IMG/VR virus record: IMGVR_UViG_3300037067_003221
Coordinates: 32,001 to 96,000 of that record
DNA: 64,000 nucleotides
Direction: 5' to 3' (one strand)
DNA from: a virus
Lineage: Duplodnaviria > Caudoviricetes
The notes below the pieces were generated by a model. The model had not been told where the DNA came from, did no database searches, and was given only the letters and a program-made list of their open reading frames with translations. This document shows, piece by piece, positions 10,528-60,931 of the stretch; position 1 is the stretch's first letter; every line of letters begins with the position of its first letter. Made by a program: the position numbers and the translations under genes.

Positions 10528-11233
10528 AACAAACCTGCTGCCGACGAACGCGCGGCGTATTTCCCAGGTAAATAATTCGCAGATTGCGAACTCAGCGTGA
10601 CCCCGATAAATGGCCCGATAAAGAAATAAAATAGGGCGTTGGGATGAATGAATAATCACCCCACGCCCGATGTAGCAACCAGTCGGTCGAATCCTTAACC
10701 TGTTAGAGGCGGTTCACTTCCATGCCTAACTACTACATTTAACACGCTAACCAGTCAGACTGTTGCAAACTACTGCGCCCGGCATTCAGCGGGCAATATG
10801 AACGGGGAGGTTATGAAGCGGTTAATTCCGCGAACGGGGGTTAGATACAGCCACCGACAATATACATTATCGTTTGCGGCCAAACCATTTTTAAGAAGTC
10901 CCGTTGTTCCCTCTCGTTGTTCCTTTTCGTTGTTGCATTGTCTTAACATTTTAATTATACCTCATTTTCAGGCTTTGTCAAGTAAGTTGCGTCAGATTTT
11001 TTGGAATTGTCTCGCCATAGAATTTTGGACAAAACCACGCAGCATTTTGTCAGTAGATTTTTCGGTCGGGGTTGATCGGATTATCGGGGTAAAGCGATGG
11101 GCGAAAAGTTTTGGCACGATTCTGACCCCGACATTTGGCATAACTGTACATAAAAATACCCCGTCCATAGTCGGGGTATCAACACGCTTCTAAGCGCGTT
11201 TGAAATTGCCGTAAATCCTTACCACATAAGCAC

Positions 11234-14626: not shown

Positions 14627-14799
14627 TAGTAGTCCTCTTCCATACTGCCGTCAGAATAGCCCTCACTCCATCCTTCGGAATGACCCCGATTCCAGGCAGC
14701 AAGCCAAATTTCATGGGCGAGTTCCTTACCCTCAACCATATCGGGGTAATGTTCAAGCCACCACAATTCAAAATCTCGATTCATAGTTACCTCTTTCAG

Positions 14800-14872
14800 G
14801 GTGGCCGACGGGACTCGAACCCGCGCATCGCGGATTCACAGTCCGCCGCCTTACCAACTTGGCTACGACCAC
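14800..14872 (-). tRNA. tRNA-His(GTG)
   Basis: Cloverleaf; anticodon arm GCGGA-CTGTGAA-TCCGC; T-loop TTCGAGT. Confidence 0.9.
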
Positions 14873-16144: not shown

Positions 16145-17242
16145 TTAGTCCCCAGCCTTAAAATTGTAAACCGGCTTGAGAACGTCCGTAATATCCGCCG
16201 TAGGCTCGATATTCGCTACAATCTCTTCCATTGCTTTATACGCCATAGGCGATTCATCCAACGTGTCGGGCGTAACGCTAGTGGTATAAATACCCTCCAT
16301 AGAGGCAGTAAAATCTTCCATGTTCAGCTTGCGTTTCGCTTCTTTCCGGCCCATCAACCGGCCCGCACCGTGCGGGGCTGATTGGTTCCACTCATAGTTG
16401 CCCTTACCCACGCAAAGCAAGCTACCATCCCGCATATTGATCGGCACAATAAACGGCTCACCCGCCCTTGCCGACACCGCGCCCTTTCGCAGAATGTTTT
16501 GCATATCGATGTAGTTGTGAACAGTTTGAAACTTGACAAGGCCGGTAAGCGGCACACCGAGAAGTTCCGTCACAATCCGACGAACCATTGTAACACGGTT
16601 CAGCGTTGCGTATCCCTGCACAGTCCGCATATCCGTCAAGTAATGATCTTTGAACGCGCCCGTTAAATAGCACAGGTCACGATGAATTTCAAGCCGCTCC
16701 GGGCAAAGTTCAGCGGCAAGGTGCTGATAATAATCAGCTACCTGCTTACCAAGGTTTCGGCTTCCCGAATGCACTACCAACCAAAGATCACCGGCAGTAT
16801 CGTGATTCACTTCGATGAAATGATTACCGCCGCCGAGCGAACCTAACGCAAGATCATAGTCGGCTTGTCGAATGCTCGCACCGCAATACAGGCCCGATAC
16901 ATCAAAGTGAGTCTGCGCGGTTTCATTGTTTCGGAAACCAAACGGGATTTTTTCGCGGATAAAATCGTCAAGCCGCTTCAAGTCAATCTCACGCTCGACG
17001 CGAACAACCGCCACCCCACAACCAATATCTACACCCACTAAGTTGGGGACAACCTTATCGCCCACCATCAGGGTGGTGCCGATAACGCAACCGGCCCCGG
17101 CATGGCAATCGGGCATGATACGCACCTTTGAATTAGCAGCAAACGAATGATCGATAAGTTGCTGTATCTGCGCGATAGTCGTTTCGTCCGGCGTATCCGT
17201 GAAGATTTTAGCCGCGGTGTAGCGTCCGGTAAGTTCGATCAT
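16145..17242 (-). CDS. rtcB: RNA-splicing/repair ligase RtcB
   Basis: MPDCHAG, VGVDIGCG, LGGGNHFIE, VHSGSR, HNY, SAPHGAGR and DESPMAYK motifs. Confidence 0.95.
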   Translation of the reverse strand: MIELTGRYTAAKIFTDTPDETTIAQIQQLIDHSFAANSKVRIMPDCHAGAGCVIGTTLMVGDKVVPNLVGVDIGCGVAVVRVEREIDLKRLDDFIREKIPFGFRNNETAQTHFDVSGLYCGASIRQADYDLALGSLGGGNHFIEVNHDTAGDLWLVVHSGSRNLGKQVADYYQHLAAELCPERLEIHRDLCYLTGAFKDHYLTDMRTVQGYATLNRVTMVRRIVTELLGVPLTGLVKFQTVHNYIDMQNILRKGAVSARAGEPFIVPINMRDGSLLCVGKGNYEWNQSAPHGAGRLMGRKEAKRKLNMEDFTASMEGIYTTSVTPDTLDESPMAYKAMEEIVANIEPTADITDVLKPVYNFKAGD

Positions 17243-17251
17243 AATGTTTCC

Positions 17252-17530
17252 TTAGTTTGTTAAGTACCGGGTTGTTAAATCCTCACGCAATTCCATAAGC
17301 ATTTCCGTATCTTTTAGAAGTTTCCATTCCATCGTTTCAATAGCGAAAACCGTAGCCCGTTGCTTTGCAGTTTGCAAATCGTTGGCGACGAAAATTCGAT
17401 CCCGTCCGTTGAATGTGGCAACCCATTGGTCGCTGCCCGGCAAATTCTTACGTAAAAGAATTTCATGCGGCTGAAAATTCCGCGAACCAGTTGCCACCCA
17501 TTTTGAATCAATTTGTTCCCATTCGAGCAT
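17252..17530 (-). CDS. Hypothetical protein (small MxxW family)
   Basis: MLEW...ANDLQTAKQRA. Confidence 0.6.
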   Translation of the reverse strand: MLEWEQIDSKWVATGSRNFQPHEILLRKNLPGSDQWVATFNGRDRIFVANDLQTAKQRATVFAIETMEWKLLKDTEMLMELREDLTTRYLTN

Positions 17531-17555
17531 TTTGTATTATTCCTTGTTATAAAAT

Positions 17556-17681
17556 GTAGCCGGGTGGGAGTCGAACCCACATAAGGCAACCGGCCTCTTT
17601 TGTGTTGGAGTCGAACCAACCCCCTCTTCCAGAGCTTCCCAGGGAATTGAACCCCGCACATTTTCCGCTAACGCCGACTAC
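17556..17681 (-). ncRNA. Putative tRNA-like ncRNA with three T-loop hairpins
   Basis: Closing stem GTAGTCGG/CCGGCTAC; hairpins GGG-TTCAATT-CCC, GTTGG-TTCGACT-CCAAC, GTGGG-TTCGACT-CCCAC; begins at the expected +1 of the promoter at 17688-17715. Confidence 0.7.
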
Positions 17682-17736
17682 ATTTTAATTATACCTCATG
17701 TTTTCTAAAAGTCAAATCAAGGTCCAATTATTCCTA

Positions 17737-21570: not shown

Positions 21571-22620
21571 ATCAAGTTCCAGTGTGCAGGGTTAGTTAGT
21601 CACTACTACAACTATACACTATTTTCCAGGGTTGTCAAGTCATTTTCGGAGCAAAATAAACCAATGAGTAATGTTTTCCATCCCATACCCATACAGATTT
21701 ACCAGGGCTAATAACAGGTTTATTCGTAAATGGACCGCTAATAATCCCAGGGTGGTCGGGGTTTATGCCGATACCAATATAGTAGCTAGGGACTAATTCA
21801 CTTTTGGCCGTTGCTACTATATCTTCAATCGCCACTTGCAGGGCGGCATCCCGCTCACTTAGACTTGCTTGAATCAAGTCCCATAGGTTGCAATACTCGG
21901 CAGACCCTCCGAATGGCCCCATCGAATGCTGGTGTTTATACAGTAAGTGACGGGCGTATTCGAGCGTTAGTTTTGTTAAATCGTCCATTTACCCTCCAAT
22001 GTGGCAGTGACCGCACCAATACCAGAAATGTCCGTCACGACAGCTAAGAACCTTATAAATGGCACGGTCGCCACAATCGCCACACACCCGTTCAGGTGAG
22101 CAAGACGTTAGCACAACTGGCAGCCCTTCCATGTTCATTACGAATATCTCGGTAAAACCCGTTGCATTCATGCAATGGATTCTAACCTTTTCATCGGAGA
22201 AAGGCGGAAGCGTTACAATTAGGTCCATGATTATCTTGATAACCTCCGTAAGCAAATATACAGGTAGGCGGGGTCATACGGTTGCGGATTGCCTTCGATG
22301 TAAACCTGACCCCGGAATATGGTTCTGACCCGGCCAAACACGCCAGACCCTTTAACCAGCAAACCACTAATATCCTTACCCATCAGGATAACAGTTTTTA
22401 ACGATAGGCTACCCATATTGCCGTTCATACTCTTTGGTTTTCCAGCAAACTATCGTCACATATTGTGCCAATAGCCGACTATCATCAAGATTGTCTTTGC
22501 CGTGGAAGTGTTGAATATAGCAAGAGGCGGCATCGAATACTTCGGGAGTATCCGCGCACCACCACAAGCCATGAGCAATTTCGATTGCTTCTTTCAATAG
22601 TGCTTTATCGTATTTCATAG

Positions 22621-22763
22621 TGGACCTTGGAGGCTCGAACTCCCAACAGTCGGCAAAGGTCTGCTTAAAAGCTATTTTCTAGCTATCTCAGACAATCCCG
22701 GTCGATCATTCCGGTAGGCTCCGAGTGTCAGCTTTCATCACCGTCTTGCGACCATGCAGGCCC
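22621..22763 (-). ncRNA. tRNA-like RNA with Ala-type acceptor (G3-U70, A73) and an enlarged internal domain
   Basis: GGGCCT/AGGTCC-A acceptor and GGAG-TTCGAGC-CTCC T-arm enclosing about 110 nt with several hairpins. Confidence 0.55.
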
Positions 22764-22766
22764 AAG

Positions 22767-34999: not shown

Positions 35000-36595
35000 T
35001 TAGTTCCTTACAAAGTCTGCCATAACAGCCGGGCAGGCGGCATCAAAGCCGACAACATCCAACATCCCGGCATCATTCGGATCAGCAATAGTGAATCCAG
35101 TCGCCGTGGTCCCGGCCACGATCAACTTGGCGTTAATGCCCATTTTCTGACGGTATTGCGTCAAGGCTTGGCATGGGTGAATATCACCCGACCACGTTTC
35201 ATTATCGGTATAGATAATGAAAGCATCAACTTCAATTTTATTCTCCGCTGCGTACAGCATCGGAAGGGCACAATCAGTGCGGGACATTCTGATCGACTTA
35301 ATCAAGGCAATCACTTCGCTCAATCGAGAGCAACGGTTAATGTCCATCGGACTAATACCCCCGGAAAACGCCGTAACCAGCGTTTGCGGCTCAGTCTTAG
35401 TCGTAACCATCGACATGCAAGCCGACACATCCCTAGCAGAGAGATTCGTATTGGCTACACGCTGGCTACCCATCGAACCCGATACGTCAAGGGCAACCAT
35501 GTGCCGCTTGCCAGTCGGTTCAACTGCATCGAAAGACGCATAAAACGCATCTTCCAATGCCGCCGTAATTTGAGTTACAGGGGTCCAAGTCAATGCACCA
35601 CGGAAACCGTGGCCTTGACGATAGGTGTCTTGTGCAAGCAAGATCGACAACGGATGCACGCGCGCCCGCTTCAAATCTTCCATATTCATTAGGTGTCGGC
35701 ACACCAAATTGGTTGCAGCCGACAGCGGCTTCAATAGCCCGATGCTGGACAACTTGCCGAGATTGCGAATCAAGGCAGTGGGCGGCATGTGGGGCAGCAA
35801 TTCTTCCCAAATGACCGTGCTATTAAGCAACGTATTCGGAACATGCTCGAACGACATTTGATACTTGCGAATTAAATCCGCAGCCTTACGTTCGTCGCCG
35901 GGTCCGAGTTTTTGAATTGCTTCAAACCCTTCAACGATTGCCAAAGGCGAGTTAGCAGGGATGCAAGGAATACTGCCACCCTGAGTCAGATACTTGTATA
36001 GGGCGTTTCGCACATCGCTATTGGTCCGTGGGTGCGACAGCCGCAGCGCATCGCGGTGCGTATAACCTTCACGGTTACGATACTTCGTAACTTGATAGGC
36101 CAGCCGCTCTATTGGCATAACGTCATACCAAGTGGCAACTGCATTACGCAGACCACGGCCCCAACCACGCATTTCCTTACACGCTCCGATGAATTGGAAT
36201 AAGTGCGTCGGAATACGGCACACGGTCGATAGGTGGTGCAGAGCATGGCTACGGGCAACATTGTCGCCGTGACTTGCCACAAGGGCAAGAGCGAAGATTG
36301 CCGCATCGTTCTTAGGTGCCCGGCCAGCCGAACTAATACCGGCAATAGTCTTAACCGTGCGAGACGAATCGACGGCGGCACATTCCAACACGACCTTAGC
36401 ATTATCCACAGTCATCGGGCGTTCGCCAACATAATACGAACCGCCCTCGCATCCGAGAATCAAGAACCGTTCAAGACGGGTCCAAATATCCGTTGCGAAA
36501 ACAAATCCGCCAGCGTTATTTTTGACCTGTTCGCGGCCAAAGATAGCTTGCGATTGCGAAGTTTTGCGAGACGAAACATGCTGTGCGTAACTCAT
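35000..36595 (-). CDS. rsr: Ro60/Rsr (TROVE + vWA domain) RNA-binding protein
   Basis: NNAGGFVF, RFLILG.EGGSYY, RGWGRGLR, KYRNREG, ALIRNLGK, DVSGSM (MIDAS), TDCALPM, YTDNET, GMLDVVGFD; GGAG RBS before the ATG at 36595. Confidence 0.95.
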   Translation of the reverse strand: MSYAQHVSSRKTSQSQAIFGREQVKNNAGGFVFATDIWTRLERFLILGCEGGSYYVGERPMTVDNAKVVLECAAVDSSRTVKTIAGISSAGRAPKNDAAIFALALVASHGDNVARSHALHHLSTVCRIPTHLFQFIGACKEMRGWGRGLRNAVATWYDVMPIERLAYQVTKYRNREGYTHRDALRLSHPRTNSDVRNALYKYLTQGGSIPCIPANSPLAIVEGFEAIQKLGPGDERKAADLIRKYQMSFEHVPNTLLNSTVIWEELLPHMPPTALIRNLGKLSSIGLLKPLSAATNLVCRHLMNMEDLKRARVHPLSILLAQDTYRQGHGFRGALTWTPVTQITAALEDAFYASFDAVEPTGKRHMVALDVSGSMGSQRVANTNLSARDVSACMSMVTTKTEPQTLVTAFSGGISPMDINRCSRLSEVIALIKSIRMSRTDCALPMLYAAENKIEVDAFIIYTDNETWSGDIHPCQALTQYRQKMGINAKLIVAGTTATGFTIADPNDAGMLDVVGFDAACPAVMADFVRN

Positions 36596-37330: not shown

Positions 37331-37463
37331 TGGGCGTGAATGGGACTCGAACCCATACTGTTCCTTTGATAATGGATAACGCTTTACCGTCGGCCCGCGA
37401 TATACTCAGCCGGGCAAAAGGTGGCAAAACGGTTTAACGTGCTGCCATTACACTATCACGCCC
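37331..37463 (-). ncRNA. tRNA/Y-RNA chimera Y3 (Ro-binding helix replaces the anticodon arm)
   Basis: 8-bp acceptor GGGCGTGA/TCACGCCC, D arm TAGTGTAATGGCAGCAC, T arm ATGGG-TTCGAGT-CCCAT, internal CGTTTTGCC..TTGCCCG / CGGGC(C)GA..GGTAAAGCG-TTATC. Confidence 0.8.
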
Positions 37464-37800: not shown

Positions 37801-37884
37801 TACCGAAGGTGGGAGTCGAACCCACACGGTCCTTCGACCACTGGTTTCTAAGACCAGCGCGGCTTCCAGTTACGCCACTTCGGC
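37801..37884 (-). tRNA. tRNA-Leu(TAG)
   Basis: CTGGT-CTTAGAA-ACCAG; long variable arm. Confidence 0.92.
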
Positions 37885-59037: not shown

Positions 59038-59862
59038 TTAAACAAAAGTGCATGATTTGCACGGTTCAGAAGTTCGTACCTTCATTTGTCTCATTGCTTT
59101 AGCTTGTGGACTATTGAACACATCTAAAATGTGGTCAGTAGTTACGTCCCCAAGTTGGTATTCACACAGCCCATCCATGCAACATAAGGCTACCTTACCG
59201 TCACAGCAGATCGAAAGTTCTTGCGTCCGTCGGCATGGCCCTATTTGAGCAGCAACAGATGGGGCATCAATATTATTGCACCACCTTCCGCGATACATCA
59301 ACGCTACAATAGCTGGCTCTGGAAACATTTTTCGCCCCCAGTCTGACCATTTTCTATCCTCTTCACTATAAGAGGCCACGCGACCAATTACAAGTTGATG
59401 CTTTATACCAGCCTCAATTAGTTGTCTGATATTTTTGAGTGTCTTATCAAAATCTAAACCAGTTTCATCTTTATAGAGGCGACTGGTTCGTTGGTTAAGC
59501 GAAATCCAGATGTGTGTCATACGTTTGATAGCCAACAAAGTCGGAATCAAGTCGTTTGGCATGTGATTCAAATTCGTATGAAGTTCAATCCATGCCTTGG
59601 GCACTTGTTCATCAATTTGCACCAGCCGTTGTGAAAACAATGGGTCAAGCATCGGCTCACCCAGTTTGAAAGGCGATATAATAAACGGTTGTGGAATCTC
59701 TCTCGCCTCTGTAAGAATCTTCGTGAATAGTTCCGGTGACATATCGCTAGTGCGTCTAGGCGACCTGTCATGGGGACAGAACCGGCACCTTGAATTGCAC
59801 CGGCCTGTCGTTTCAATGTGAATACTAGTCGGATATTCCTTCGTCGTCAAGCTCTCCATCAT
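59038..59862 (-). CDS. Radical SAM protein with SPASM/twitch domain
   Basis: CNSRCRFC; DGKVALCCMD; C-terminal CKSC. Confidence 0.88.
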   Translation of the reverse strand: MMESLTTKEYPTSIHIETTGRCNSRCRFCPHDRSPRRTSDMSPELFTKILTEAREIPQPFIISPFKLGEPMLDPLFSQRLVQIDEQVPKAWIELHTNLNHMPNDLIPTLLAIKRMTHIWISLNQRTSRLYKDETGLDFDKTLKNIRQLIEAGIKHQLVIGRVASYSEEDRKWSDWGRKMFPEPAIVALMYRGRWCNNIDAPSVAAQIGPCRRTQELSICCDGKVALCCMDGLCEYQLGDVTTDHILDVFNSPQAKAMRQMKVRTSEPCKSCTFV

Positions 59863-60931
59863 CTTTCGCACCCTTTCTATCCAAGTAATCGGCGGATACA
59901 CTTTTCAAAATCATCCGGCCAATGTGACAAGTTTGCTCAACCAACGGAGTCACAACACAGCCTTCGCGGCCTTTGAACTTACAGGCGGGGTCAAACGTAG
60001 TTGGACCGTAAGTAAGTTCTTTCAAAATATCCAATGAGAATGGGCCAACATACAATACTGGCACCAATTCTACGCCATAAACATTGCACCAAGTTTCCAG
60101 AACGTCCCAATTGACGTACTGACCGTTAATCATCATGTCAAAGACACGGTAGCCCAATTGGCCGCTCGGAACACCATAGTCCAAGTCTTGTACGCCAGGG
60201 CCGAACAACTCACCATATACGACAACCTCATTGGTTTCGTCGCAAATGTCGGTCAGCATGTGCAGGATATTTTCATACTGCAACGGCTCCCAGTAAACAT
60301 TGACTTTCAATTCGTCGGCCAAGTCCGAGTAGTAACACTCATGGGTGAATTGTTTCTTCACACAATGATGCGAACCGCCAACAAACTGCCATTCACCATC
60401 GATCTTGATAAGACCAATGCGGCTATTAGTTCCGTGAATCTTTTCGGTGATTCGTACTGGCAAACCCTCCTCGATAACACTGTGATTTTTCCAGTGGTGC
60501 TGGATGCTGGTGTATTCAGGGAAATTCAACAGCTTGTGGCTTGTCTTAGCTTGGCCCTGGCGCAGTTGTGCCCGCGTGATAGGCGGCTCATACTTTACTG
60601 CACCGTAGTAGTCGGATACATCCGTACCCTCAGCCTTACCAACCAGCGGCTCCGGTACAACTTGAATGAAGCCGTAAGACGGAGTACCCCGCAAACGGGT
60701 GGCCGCAATACGGTTGCCATGTTTCAAGTACGCCTTGACTCCAAGGCCAATTGCTACCGGCTCTGGCAAAATCATGTCAGGCGGGAAGAATACAGCCAAG
60801 TCACCGGCCTTAAATTGGCCAATAGGTGCAAGAGTCTGAGTGCCAAGGATGGTGACAATCTCAAGCCGATCCGCATTAGGATGTGGCGAGATTCCAATTA
60901 CCCGTTCAATACTTACGTTAATTTCCGACAT
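59825..60931 (-). CDS. ATP-dependent RNA ligase, DRB0094/Rnl5 family
   Basis: N-terminal OB domain HPNADRLE; TEKIHGTN, GELFG, FD, REGCVV, LKSVS. Confidence 0.9.
   Translation of the reverse strand: MSEINVSIERVIGISPHPNADRLEIVTILGTQTLAPIGQFKAGDLAVFFPPDMILPEPVAIGLGVKAYLKHGNRIAATRLRGTPSYGFIQVVPEPLVGKAEGTDVSDYYGAVKYEPPITRAQLRQGQAKTSHKLLNFPEYTSIQHHWKNHSVIEEGLPVRITEKIHGTNSRIGLIKIDGEWQFVGGSHHCVKKQFTHECYYSDLADELKVNVYWEPLQYENILHMLTDICDETNEVVVYGELFGPGVQDLDYGVPSGQLGYRVFDMMINGQYVNWDVLETWCNVYGVELVPVLYVGPFSLDILKELTYGPTTFDPACKFKGREGCVVTPLVEQTCHIGRMILKSVSADYLDRKGAKDDGELDDEGISD

What the first reader, a model, noticed from the sequence alone, without database searches (positions are those of the whole stretch)
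17551..17715. Promoter-driven tRNA-like RNA with three T-loops at the head of the rtcB transcription unit
Seen: a ~126-nt segment begins at the expected +1 of a consensus promoter and is closed by GTAGTCGG/CCGGCTAC. It carries three hairpins with 7-nt T-loop consensus (TTCAATT, TTCGACT, TTCGACT), the last stacked on the closing stem exactly as in a tRNA 3' half. It has no D arm or anticodon arm. It is followed by a 92-aa ORF and rtcB. Established: interdigitated T-loop pairs recognise the tRNA elbow in T-box, RNase P and the L1 stalk. Inference: a tRNA mimic or decoy, a tRNA-sensing leader for rtcB, or a dedicated RtcB substrate. It does not fit an RNA class I recognise.
Basis: partly seen in the sequence, partly recalled or inferred. 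Interest (0 to 1): 0.8.

Follow-up and report, generated by a model that had tools for sequence, protein, structure and literature searches.

The report
Phage tRNA mimic with three T-arms
Just behind a strong promoter and ahead of its RNA-repair ligase gene rtcB, this phage encodes a 126-base tRNA-like RNA with an acceptor stem and three T-arms but no anticodon arm; RNAs built the same way recur in other phages, match no Rfam family and appeared in no paper I could search, so it is more likely a tRNA decoy or scaffold than a working tRNA.

Summary
On the minus strand a near-consensus promoter (17715-17688) puts the likely start at G17681. That base opens an 8-bp acceptor-like helix (17681-17674 / 17563-17556), which encloses three perfect T-arm hairpins, a small UGG-loop hairpin and a variable-arm-like hairpin. 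ORF92 and rtcB follow. It is not a canonical tRNA and matches no Rfam family. It is not a tandem repeat and does not code for protein.

No direct homologue turned up in viral, metagenome or related-phage sequence. The build does recur. A generic triple-T-loop pattern hits at least 119 viral stretches, against 13 for a control pattern. Among these is a well-supported family with no Rfam match ("Family A", at least 26 loci), whose closing helix and hairpins covary. Some members lie beside Ro60, RtcB or RNA ligase genes. Other phages carry multi-T-arm RNAs directly next to rtcB.

My element shares the layout but lacks Family A's signature motif, and its parts match this phage's own tRNA-His and tRNA-Leu. 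Best reading (about 0.5): a non-decoding tRNA mimic, cut out by tRNA-processing enzymes, that acts as decoy or scaffold in the phage's tRNA damage and repair toolkit. Transcription and function are untested. The scan had already noted this same stretch once before, read from another window.

The parts
17710..17715 (-). -35 hexamer TTGACT
   Evidence: Promoter scan, 11 of 12 consensus matches with a 16-nt spacer. The -10 and its downstream flank (GAGGTATAATTAAAATGT) recur at a second promoter near 10946-10968.
17688..17693 (-). -10 hexamer TATAAT
   Evidence: G17681 lies 7 nt downstream. That this is the transcription start is inferred, not measured.
17674..17681 (-). 5' strand of the acceptor-like closing helix, GTAGTCGG
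   Evidence: Pairs with 17563-17556 at probability 0.82-1.0. Its first 7 nt match the phage tRNA-His acceptor except for one compensated pair.
17657..17673 (-). 17-nt linker containing GCGGAAAA, a possible D-loop stand-in
   Evidence: Aligns with the A(A/T)TGG..AAGG linker of the Family A RNAs. A D-loop role is inferred.
17640..17656 (-). T-arm hairpin 1: CGGGG TTCAATT CCCTG
17624..17634 (-). Short hairpin CTCT-GGA-AGAG with UGG at the loop
   Evidence: The G at alignment position 52 is invariant across all 17 aligned sequences. The counterpart in L100 is GTCT-GGAC-AGAC.
17604..17620 (-). T-arm hairpin 2: GTTGG TTCGACT CCAAC
   Evidence: It has the same loop as hairpin 3, and its stem differs from hairpin 3 by one compensated pair (T:A against G:C).
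17584..17596 (-). Variable-arm-like hairpin AGGC-CGGTT-GCCT
   Evidence: Pair probability 0.98-0.99. It sits where class II tRNAs carry their long variable arm.
17564..17580 (-). T-arm hairpin 3, the true T-arm position: GTGGG TTCGACT CCCAC
   Evidence: A 19-nt stretch is identical to the T arm of the phage tRNA-Leu(TAG) at 37808-37826.
17555..17563 (-). 3' strand of the closing helix, CCGGCTAC, plus discriminator A. No CCA is encoded.
   Evidence: None of the phage's tRNAs encodes CCA either.
17252..17530 (-). ORF92, an orphan protein with an AAGGAA ribosome-binding site
   Evidence: Positive codon-usage score of 0.19, against -0.22 for the overlapping ORF115 that starts inside the RNA. No homologue or family found.
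16145..17242 (-). rtcB, a 3'-phosphate/5'-hydroxyl RNA ligase
   Evidence: Pfam PF01139, E 1.1e-60.

Best explanation
The element is a non-decoding small RNA derived from tRNA. An acceptor-type helix with a stacked T arm closes a body that carries two further T-arm hairpins, a UGG-loop hairpin and a variable-arm-like hairpin. There is no anticodon arm.

Proposed mechanism (all inferred): a strong early-type promoter starts transcription at about the first base of the acceptor helix. The acceptor/T-arm minihelix is recognised by the enzymes that mature the phage's CCA-less tRNAs, which cut after the discriminator and add CCA. This releases a stable RNA of about 126 nt and frees the ORF92-rtcB message. 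The released RNA then acts in trans as a multivalent tRNA mimic. Lacking an anticodon loop, it could compete for proteins that recognise the tRNA body or elbow, most plausibly host tRNA-cleaving defence nucleases, without being inactivated by them. Alternatively it could scaffold the phage's own RNA repair and surveillance proteins (RtcB, an Rnl-type ligase, Ro60).

Shown: the anatomy, the promoter match, the absence of coding potential, the recurrence of the architecture in other phages, and the genomic link to RNA-repair genes. Inferred: transcription start, processing, stability and the decoy or scaffold role.
For: Anatomy and non-chance:
- It is non-coding. ORF115, which starts inside it, scores -0.22, while ORF92 scores +0.19.

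Recurrence of the build:
- Family A (at least 26 loci at 60 bits or more) has three T hairpins with compensatory changes. A perfect 6-bp closing helix of different sequence occurs in 14 of 15 members, against a mean of 0.77 (maximum 4) for shuffled strands.
- Other acceptor-closed three-T-arm RNAs lack the Family A motif: L100, L140 and L157.
- The element aligns full-length and colinearly to the Family A model at 38.4 bits. That is the best hit in its own genome, above tandem tRNA pairs at about 26 bits.

Link to RNA repair:
- This phage encodes RtcB, Ro60 (TROVE plus vWA) and an Rnl-type ligase.
- L138 has RtcB, TROVE, a tRNA with a 72-nt insert, a tRNA, a Family A RNA and an RNA ligase within 6 kb on one strand.
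- In L137 an RNA ligase follows the Family A RNA directly.
- In L084 a 211-nt acceptor-closed RNA with four T arms starts at the rtcB stop codon.
- L065 has odd tRNA-like pieces just upstream of rtcB.
- TROVE is present in 4 of 17 Family A records and PF09414 ligase in 5 of 17.

Precedent: Hughes et al. [quoted passage not shown] RNase P cleaves and CCA is added to M. smegmatis YrlA (PMC4201824).
Against: - No direct homologue exists, so the element itself has no covariation support.
- Its 38.4 bits lies in the range of generic triple-T-loop elements (30-50 bits), far below true Family A members (60-129 bits). It also lacks their CAAATAGGG..CCCGCC motif.
- Its T arm is identical over 19 nt to the phage's tRNA-Leu(TAG), and its acceptor nearly equals that of tRNA-His. 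It may therefore be a recent mosaic whose intact stems reflect youth rather than selection.
- The nearest-neighbour MFE (-43.9 kcal/mol) pairs half of hairpin 1 with half of hairpin 2. The three-hairpin fold is 2.8 kcal/mol worse, and the folding z-score is only -0.88.
- RtcB is found in only 1 of 17 Family A records, and I have no baseline rate of TROVE or ligase genes in comparable phages.
Confidence: 0.5

Rival explanations
1. It is a cis-acting leader of the ORF92-rtcB message. The tRNA-like fold would serve as a processing, stability or attenuation signal, or as a mimic of RtcB's substrate through which RtcB or another tRNA-binding factor feeds back on its own mRNA.
For: - It starts at the predicted +1 and ends 25 nt before the ORF92 start codon, with no terminator in between.
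- Two competing folds of similar energy exist: three hairpins, or a long central helix.
- tRNA-like elements lie directly next to rtcB in L065 and L084 as well.
Against: - The ribosome-binding site lies outside the structure.
- The nearest RtcB genes (54-60% identity) have no such leader.
- RNAs of the same build mostly lie in tRNA arrays or downstream of genes.
- Cross-pairing between two similar T arms is expected in any such RNA and need not be a switch.
Confidence: 0.2
2. It is functionless debris: a recent chimera made by recombination or partial duplication among the phage's own tRNA genes, tolerated at the head of an operon.
For: - 19-nt identity to the tRNA-Leu(TAG) T arm, and an acceptor nearly the same as that of tRNA-His.
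- No homologue anywhere.
- Folding z-score of -0.88.
- Bacterial genomes are full of non-functional repeats of tRNA 3' ends.
Against: - It is not a direct repeat.
- All three stems and the 8-bp closure are perfect.
- Hairpins 2 and 3 differ by a compensated pair.
- The order of its parts (linker with GG, T hairpin, UGG hairpin, T hairpin, variable hairpin, T arm) parallels independently conserved phage RNAs.
- Its 5' end coincides with a promoter's +1.
Confidence: 0.17
3. It is a sensor or clamp for the tRNA elbow. Two of the T-loops would interdigitate, as in T-box Stem I, the RNase P S-domain or the L1 stalk, and stack on the elbow of a cellular tRNA.
For: Three T-loop motifs lie close together. 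From established knowledge, interdigitated T-loop pairs dock tRNA elbows in those three systems.
Against: - In the known modules the T-loops are a terminal loop plus an internal bulge of one helix, not separate 7-nt hairpins with G53-C61-type stems.
- Three GG-bearing segments are available to cap the three T-loops internally, as D-loops do in tRNA.
- There is no specifier-like or other tRNA-pairing segment.
- No tool here can test tertiary docking.
Confidence: 0.08
4. It is a working, decoding tRNA with extra arms, for example tRNA-Ser(CGA) as ARAGORN calls it, or a Sec-like 8/5 tRNA.
For: ARAGORN calls tRNA-Ser(cga) at 17556-17645. The 8-bp acceptor plus 5-bp T stem and a variable arm resemble tRNA-Sec, which gives the best but weak Rfam hit at 19.4 bits.
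Against: - No Rfam tRNA hit at the 29-bit gathering score, and tRNA-Sec reaches 19.4 bits against a cutoff of 47.
- ARAGORN finds nothing on the isolated region in intron mode.
- Both candidate anticodon loops are T-loop sequences with a pyrimidine at position 37.
- There is no D stem, and the ARAGORN model ignores the real 8-bp closure.
Confidence: 0.03

Closest known systems
YrlA-type bacterial and phage Y RNAs (Chen et al. 2014, PMC4201824)
   Same: - A non-decoding tRNA mimic with a T arm and a D-like element.
- Encoded in RNA-repair loci alongside rtcB and Ro60.
- Handled by tRNA enzymes.
- A decoy role against an anticodon nuclease has been proposed for YrlA (PMC7790460).
   Different: - YrlA has one T arm.
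- Its 5' and 3' ends form the Ro-binding stem, not the acceptor.
- It carries a GNCGAA motif near the 5' end.
- It lies within 4 kb of Ro60.
The element has three T arms and an acceptor closure, has no CGAA anywhere, and sits about 17 kb from the phage's Ro60 gene.
Phage T4 species 1 RNA (rnaC), a 139-nt stable RNA in the T4 tRNA cluster
   Same: A phage-encoded, tRNA-sized-plus stable RNA whose 3' end is a T arm stacked on a terminal helix. To my knowledge its function is still unknown.
   Different: rnaC has a single T arm and long unrelated hairpins. It shares no sequence similarity with the element, and only its T arm scores against the Family A model (13 bits).
Multi-T-arm phage RNAs with no Rfam match, found here ("Family A" plus L100, L140, L157 and L084). 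They are unnamed and appeared in none of the papers I searched.
   Same: An acceptor-type closing helix stacked on a 3' T arm, two further T-arm hairpins, a UGG-loop hairpin between them, a hairpin before the last T arm, and a length of 117-139 nt. Some lie beside RtcB, Rnl or Ro60 genes.
   Different: The element lacks Family A's invariant CAAATAGGG-N5-CCCGCC hairpin and about 19 nt after hairpin 2. Its closing helix is 8 bp rather than 6-7. It has its own promoter instead of sitting in a tRNA array. It scores 38 bits, against 60-129 for members.
Class II tRNAs and tRNA-Sec
   Same: A variable arm followed by a T arm and acceptor. The 8 + 5 bp acceptor/T stack matches bacterial tRNA-Sec, and the T arm is identical to that of the phage tRNA-Leu(TAG).
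   Different: No D stem and no anticodon arm. Rfam gives tRNA-Sec 19.4 bits against a cutoff of 47 and no RF00005 hit.
Double T-loop elbow-docking module of T-box Stem I, RNase P and the L1 stalk
   Same: Several T-loop motifs on one RNA.
   Different: The known modules interlock a terminal loop with a bulge of the same helix. Here there are three separate canonical T-arm hairpins. No docking evidence is available.

Membership tests
Canonical tRNA (Rfam RF00005) | Cloverleaf scoring at or above the 29-bit gathering score | tested here: not met
   No RF00005 hit at the locus at gathering, nor at E up to 10. The other tRNAs in the window score 41-70 bits.
Canonical tRNA (Rfam RF00005) | Acceptor stem coaxial with a T arm carrying a TTCRANY loop | tested here: met
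   The acceptor is 8 bp rather than 7.
Canonical tRNA (Rfam RF00005) | Anticodon arm with U33 and a purine at 37, plus a D stem | tested here: not met
   The two internal 7-nt loops are TTCAATT and TTCGACT, with a pyrimidine at position 37. There is no 3-4 bp D stem after the acceptor.
tRNA-Sec (RF01852) | 8/5 acceptor/T stack, long variable arm, UCA anticodon, score of at least 47 bits | tested here: not met
   The 8/5 stack and a variable-like hairpin are present, but the score is 19.4 bits at E 0.27 and there is no UCA anticodon arm.
YrlA / bacterial Y RNA | GNCGAA(N)G Ro-binding motif near the 5' end | tested here: not met
   The 126-nt sequence contains no CGAA at all (sequence). The motif definition comes from PMC4201824.
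YrlA / bacterial Y RNA | RNA ends form the Ro-binding stem, with the order T arm, closed acceptor-like stem-loop, D arm | tested here: not met
   Here the RNA's ends form the acceptor helix itself.
YrlA / bacterial Y RNA | Encoded within about 4 kb of Ro60 on the same strand | tested here: not met
   Ro60 lies at 35000-36595 on the same strand, about 17 kb away.
   The full-length colinear alignment shows this.
   The element has AAAAGAGGCCGGTTGCC instead and lacks about 19 nt there.
   38.4 bits, within the 30-50 bit range of other triple-T-loop elements.
Tandem repeats of tRNA 3' ends (integration-site relics) | Direct repeats of T arm plus acceptor with a fixed period, identical to a host tRNA end | tested here: not met
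   TRF finds no repeat. The flanks of the three hairpins differ. The 22-nt T-arm/acceptor end has no exact match in metagenome contigs, and the 25-nt version has none in viral contigs.
Interdigitated double T-loop elbow-docking module | Two T-loops interlocked to form a stacking platform for a tRNA elbow | not testable with these tools
   This needs 3D structure determination or probing.

The most novel reading that the evidence does not exclude
Phages carry a class of RNAs, described in no source I could search, that display several tRNA elbows (three T arms, each capped by its own GG element) on one acceptor-closed scaffold. These RNAs would act as multivalent decoys for tRNA-targeting defence nucleases, or as a second Y-RNA-like partner of phage Ro60 and RNA ligases. 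This element would be an independently assembled member, placed so that decoy and repair ligase are made together at the onset of infection.
Probability: 0.25. Interest if true: 0.85.

Novelty: new variant of a known kind. Interest (0 to 1): 0.62.

Why it matters
tRNA cleavage is a widespread bacterial defence against phages. Phages answer it with repair ligases and with nuclease-resistant tRNAs. An anticodon-less RNA that offers three tRNA bodies at once, made from the same promoter as RtcB, would be a third answer: titrating the attacker or recruiting the repair machinery.

The follow-up also turned up a conserved family of such RNAs, with covariation and no Rfam match, in dozens of uncultured phages. 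Some of them sit next to Ro60, RtcB or Rnl genes. This gives a concrete set of RNAs on which the long-open question of what tRNA-like phage RNAs do (T4 species 1 RNA, YrlA) can be tested.

Tried and rejected
- Direct homologues. Exact and degenerate patterns specific to the element gave 0 hits in viral contigs and 0 in metagenome contigs.
- Phage relatives. Fifteen relatives by capsid protein (51-66% identity) have neither rtcB nor paired T-loops.
- RtcB relatives. The 80 IMG/VR RtcB loci share no synteny with this phage. The nearest RtcBs in the large protein collection (55-60% identity) have no such RNA upstream.
- ORF92. It has no homologue or family.
- BLAST of the element against all triple-T-loop loci found only T-arm-length matches.
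- Rfam at a permissive threshold gave only weak tRNA-clan, mascRNA and Tymo-TLS hits.
- The ARAGORN tRNA-Ser(cga) call was rejected.
- An attP or tRNA-end copy was rejected.
- A coding reading (ORF115) was rejected.
- Bacterial genome hits of the generic pattern are mostly tandem repeats of tRNA 3' ends or coding repeats, which is a different phenomenon. The raw hit counts therefore overstate the structured class.
- Four full-text literature searches found no description of multi-T-arm RNAs. That is not proof that none exists.

Full report
**Setting.** The window is bases 32001-96000 of a 147,030-bp IMG/VR phage record that CheckV rates complete. The phage has 14 dispersed tRNA genes on the minus strand, and none encodes CCA. 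It carries an unusually rich RNA-repair set:
- RtcB at 16145-17242
- Ro60 with TROVE and vWA domains at 35000-36595
- an Rnl-type RNA ligase (PF09414) at 59825-60931

**The observation.** Read on the minus strand, the locus runs as follows:
- an intrinsic terminator at 17836-17811
- a promoter, TTGACT-16 nt-TATAAT, at 17715-17688, matching 11 of 12 consensus positions
- 7 nt after the -10, G17681, which is the first base of GTAGTCGG

GTAGTCGG pairs with CCGGCTAC (17563-17556). Between the two strands lie, in order:
- a 17-nt linker containing GCGGAAAA
- T-arm hairpin 1 (17656-17640)
- a short hairpin, CTCT-GGA-AGAG (17634-17624)
- T-arm hairpin 2 (17620-17604)
- a variable-arm-like hairpin (17596-17584)
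- T-arm hairpin 3 (17580-17564), abutting the closing helix

A discriminator A follows, then 25 nt that include an AAGGAA ribosome-binding site, then ORF92 and rtcB.

This is not chance. Hairpins with the strict T-arm core occur in this genome only in tRNAs and here. Two T-loops 12-45 nt apart occur only here, and in none of 15 related phage records, with zero control matches. It is not a tandem repeat. It is not coding either: the ORF that starts inside it scores -0.22 on phage codon usage, against +0.19 for ORF92 and +0.26 for rtcB.

**What it is not.**
- Rfam gives no family at gathering. At E up to 10 it gives only weak tRNA-clan look-alikes: tRNA-Sec at 19.4 bits against a cutoff of 47, mascRNA and a Tymovirus tRNA-like element.
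- ARAGORN's tRNA-Ser(cga) uses T hairpin 2 as an anticodon arm and ignores the real 8-bp closure. Both internal loops have a pyrimidine at position 37.
- The YrlA hallmarks are absent: the GNCGAA motif, RNA ends in the Ro-binding stem, and a position within 4 kb of Ro60.

**Origin.** The last T arm is identical over 19 nt to that of the phage's tRNA-Leu(TAG). The first 7 bp of the acceptor match the phage tRNA-His acceptor except for one compensated pair. Hairpins 2 and 3 share a loop and differ by one compensated stem pair. The element therefore looks assembled from this phage's own tRNA parts. This cuts both ways: it shows pairing being kept, but it also allows a recent origin.

**Search for homologues.** None was found.
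- Specific patterns gave nothing in viral or metagenome contigs.
- Capsid relatives lack rtcB and paired T-loops.
- RtcB relatives share no synteny and have no comparable leader.
- ORF92 is an orphan.

**The architecture recurs.** A composition-matched control hits 13. Some hits are coding repeats or tandem tRNA-end repeats, but several structured groups stand out.

The clearest group I call Family A:
- Its members are 128-139 nt long.
- The layout is a 6-7 bp closing helix, an A(A/T)TGG linker, T hairpin 1, a UGG-loop hairpin, T hairpin 2, an invariant CAAATAGGG-N5-CCCGCC hairpin, then the T arm.
- RNAalifold finds compensatory changes in 9 of 18 pairs.
- A perfect closing helix of different sequence is present in 14 of 15 members, against a mean of 0.77 for shuffled strands.
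- A covariance model finds at least 26 members at 60-129 bits among 100 loci.
- None is covered by an Rfam family, and four literature searches found no description.

Other acceptor-closed RNAs with three T arms lack the Family A motif (L100, L140, L157). One in L084 has four T arms.

**Where the element stands.** It aligns full-length and in the same order of parts to the Family A model at 38.4 bits. That is the best hit in its own genome and above tandem tRNA pairs at about 26 bits. But the score lies within the 30-50 bit range of generic triple-T-loop elements, and the family's signature motif is missing. I therefore file it as the same kind of RNA by architecture, not as a Family A member.

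**Link to RNA repair.**
- In L138 one strand carries, within 6 kb, RtcB, TROVE, a tRNA with a 72-nt insert, a tRNA, a Family A RNA and an RNA ligase.
- In L137 an RNA ligase follows the Family A RNA directly.
- In L084 the four-T-arm RNA begins at the rtcB stop codon.
- In L065 aberrant tRNA-like pieces lie just upstream of rtcB.
- Across 17 Family A records, TROVE occurs in 4, always upstream on the same strand within 0.5-7 kb. PF09414 ligase occurs in 5 and RtcB in 1.

I have no matched baseline, so this is suggestive only. The present phage has all three proteins, plus a tRNA with a long insert next to Ro60.

**Mechanism.** The acceptor/T-arm minihelix is the determinant that tRNA end-processing enzymes recognise (established knowledge). 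M. smegmatis YrlA, another tRNA mimic, is cut by RNase P and receives CCA (PMC4201824). I infer release of a stable RNA of about 126 nt from the 5' end of the rtcB transcript. With three T arms, three GG-bearing segments that could cap them, and no anticodon loop, the simplest role is a multivalent tRNA-body mimic. It would act as a competitive inhibitor of tRNA-targeting nucleases, an idea already raised for YrlA (PMC7790460), or as a scaffold for Ro60 and the ligases. I give this about 0.5. The rivals are a cis-acting leader (0.2), recent functionless mosaic (0.17), an interdigitated T-loop elbow sensor (0.08) and a decoding tRNA (0.03).

**Caveats.**
- Thermodynamic prediction slightly prefers cross-pairing of hairpins 1 and 2 (-43.9 against -41.1 kcal/mol), and the folding z-score is only -0.88.
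- Transcription, processing and function are untested.
- The E-values from the short-calibrated model are rough.

**Closest known analogues.** These are YrlA-type Y RNAs and T4 species 1 RNA, which has an acceptor-like closure and one T arm. Neither has several T arms.

Noticed in passing
window 22618-22764 (minus strand): Directly after tRNA-Glu lies another non-canonical tRNA-like RNA of about 145 nt. A 6-bp terminal helix (TGGGCC/GGTCCA) stacks on a T arm (GGGAG TTCGAGC CTCCA) and encloses a long unrelated insert, much like T4 species 1 RNA. ARAGORN and Rfam do not call it.
   Followed up: partly
window 37332-37462 (minus strand); L138:5959-6097: A tRNA-like gene with normal acceptor, D and T arms carries an insert of about 55-80 nt in place of the anticodon region (Rfam tRNA 41 bits). 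It lies just upstream of the phage Ro60 gene. L138 has a counterpart, a 139-nt tRNA with a 72-nt insert, right after its TROVE gene.
   Followed up: partly
IMG/VR loci, e.g. L156:1894-2035, L181:4269-4410, L122:416-558, L138:5590-5735: "Family A" is a conserved phage RNA of about 130 nt with a closing helix, three T-arm hairpins and an invariant AATAGGG-N5-CCCGC hairpin. It has at least 26 members among 100 loci, shows strong covariation and has no Rfam match. Four of 17 host records encode Ro60 upstream on the same strand.
   Followed up: yes
IMG/VR loci, e.g. L109:4518-4679, L118:1585-1746, L101:928-1085: A second recurrent element (at least 21 distinct loci) usually follows a tRNA directly. 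It consists of a T-arm hairpin, a D-arm-like hairpin (CTCG-yTGGy-CGAG), a conserved GTCTGGTGAGAAG segment and a second T-arm hairpin. It also has no Rfam match.
   Followed up: partly
L084:9982-10192 (minus strand): A 211-nt RNA closed by GCCACTT/AAGTGGC and containing four T-arm hairpins begins at the stop codon of a phage rtcB gene.
   Followed up: partly
L065:2520-2800: Just upstream of another phage rtcB lies a long tRNA-like gene with the same T arm (GTGGG TTCGACT CCCAC). After it, a T arm plus acceptor 3' strand (CTTGGCC) is followed 5 nt later by the complementary 5' strand (GGTCAAG), a D arm and an anticodon arm (TTC). This order resembles a circularly permuted tRNA gene.
   Followed up: no
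window 14799-14872: The phage tRNA-His gene has T, not G, at position -1, so the extra G-1 typical of bacterial tRNA-His is not encoded. Its acceptor is nearly identical to the closing helix of the element.
   Followed up: no
Genome-contig loci, e.g. L322:3433-4571, L304, L339: Acidobacterial and other genomes carry long tandem arrays (period about 56 nt, ten or more copies) of a tRNA's T arm plus acceptor end, directly downstream of the intact tRNA gene.
   Followed up: no
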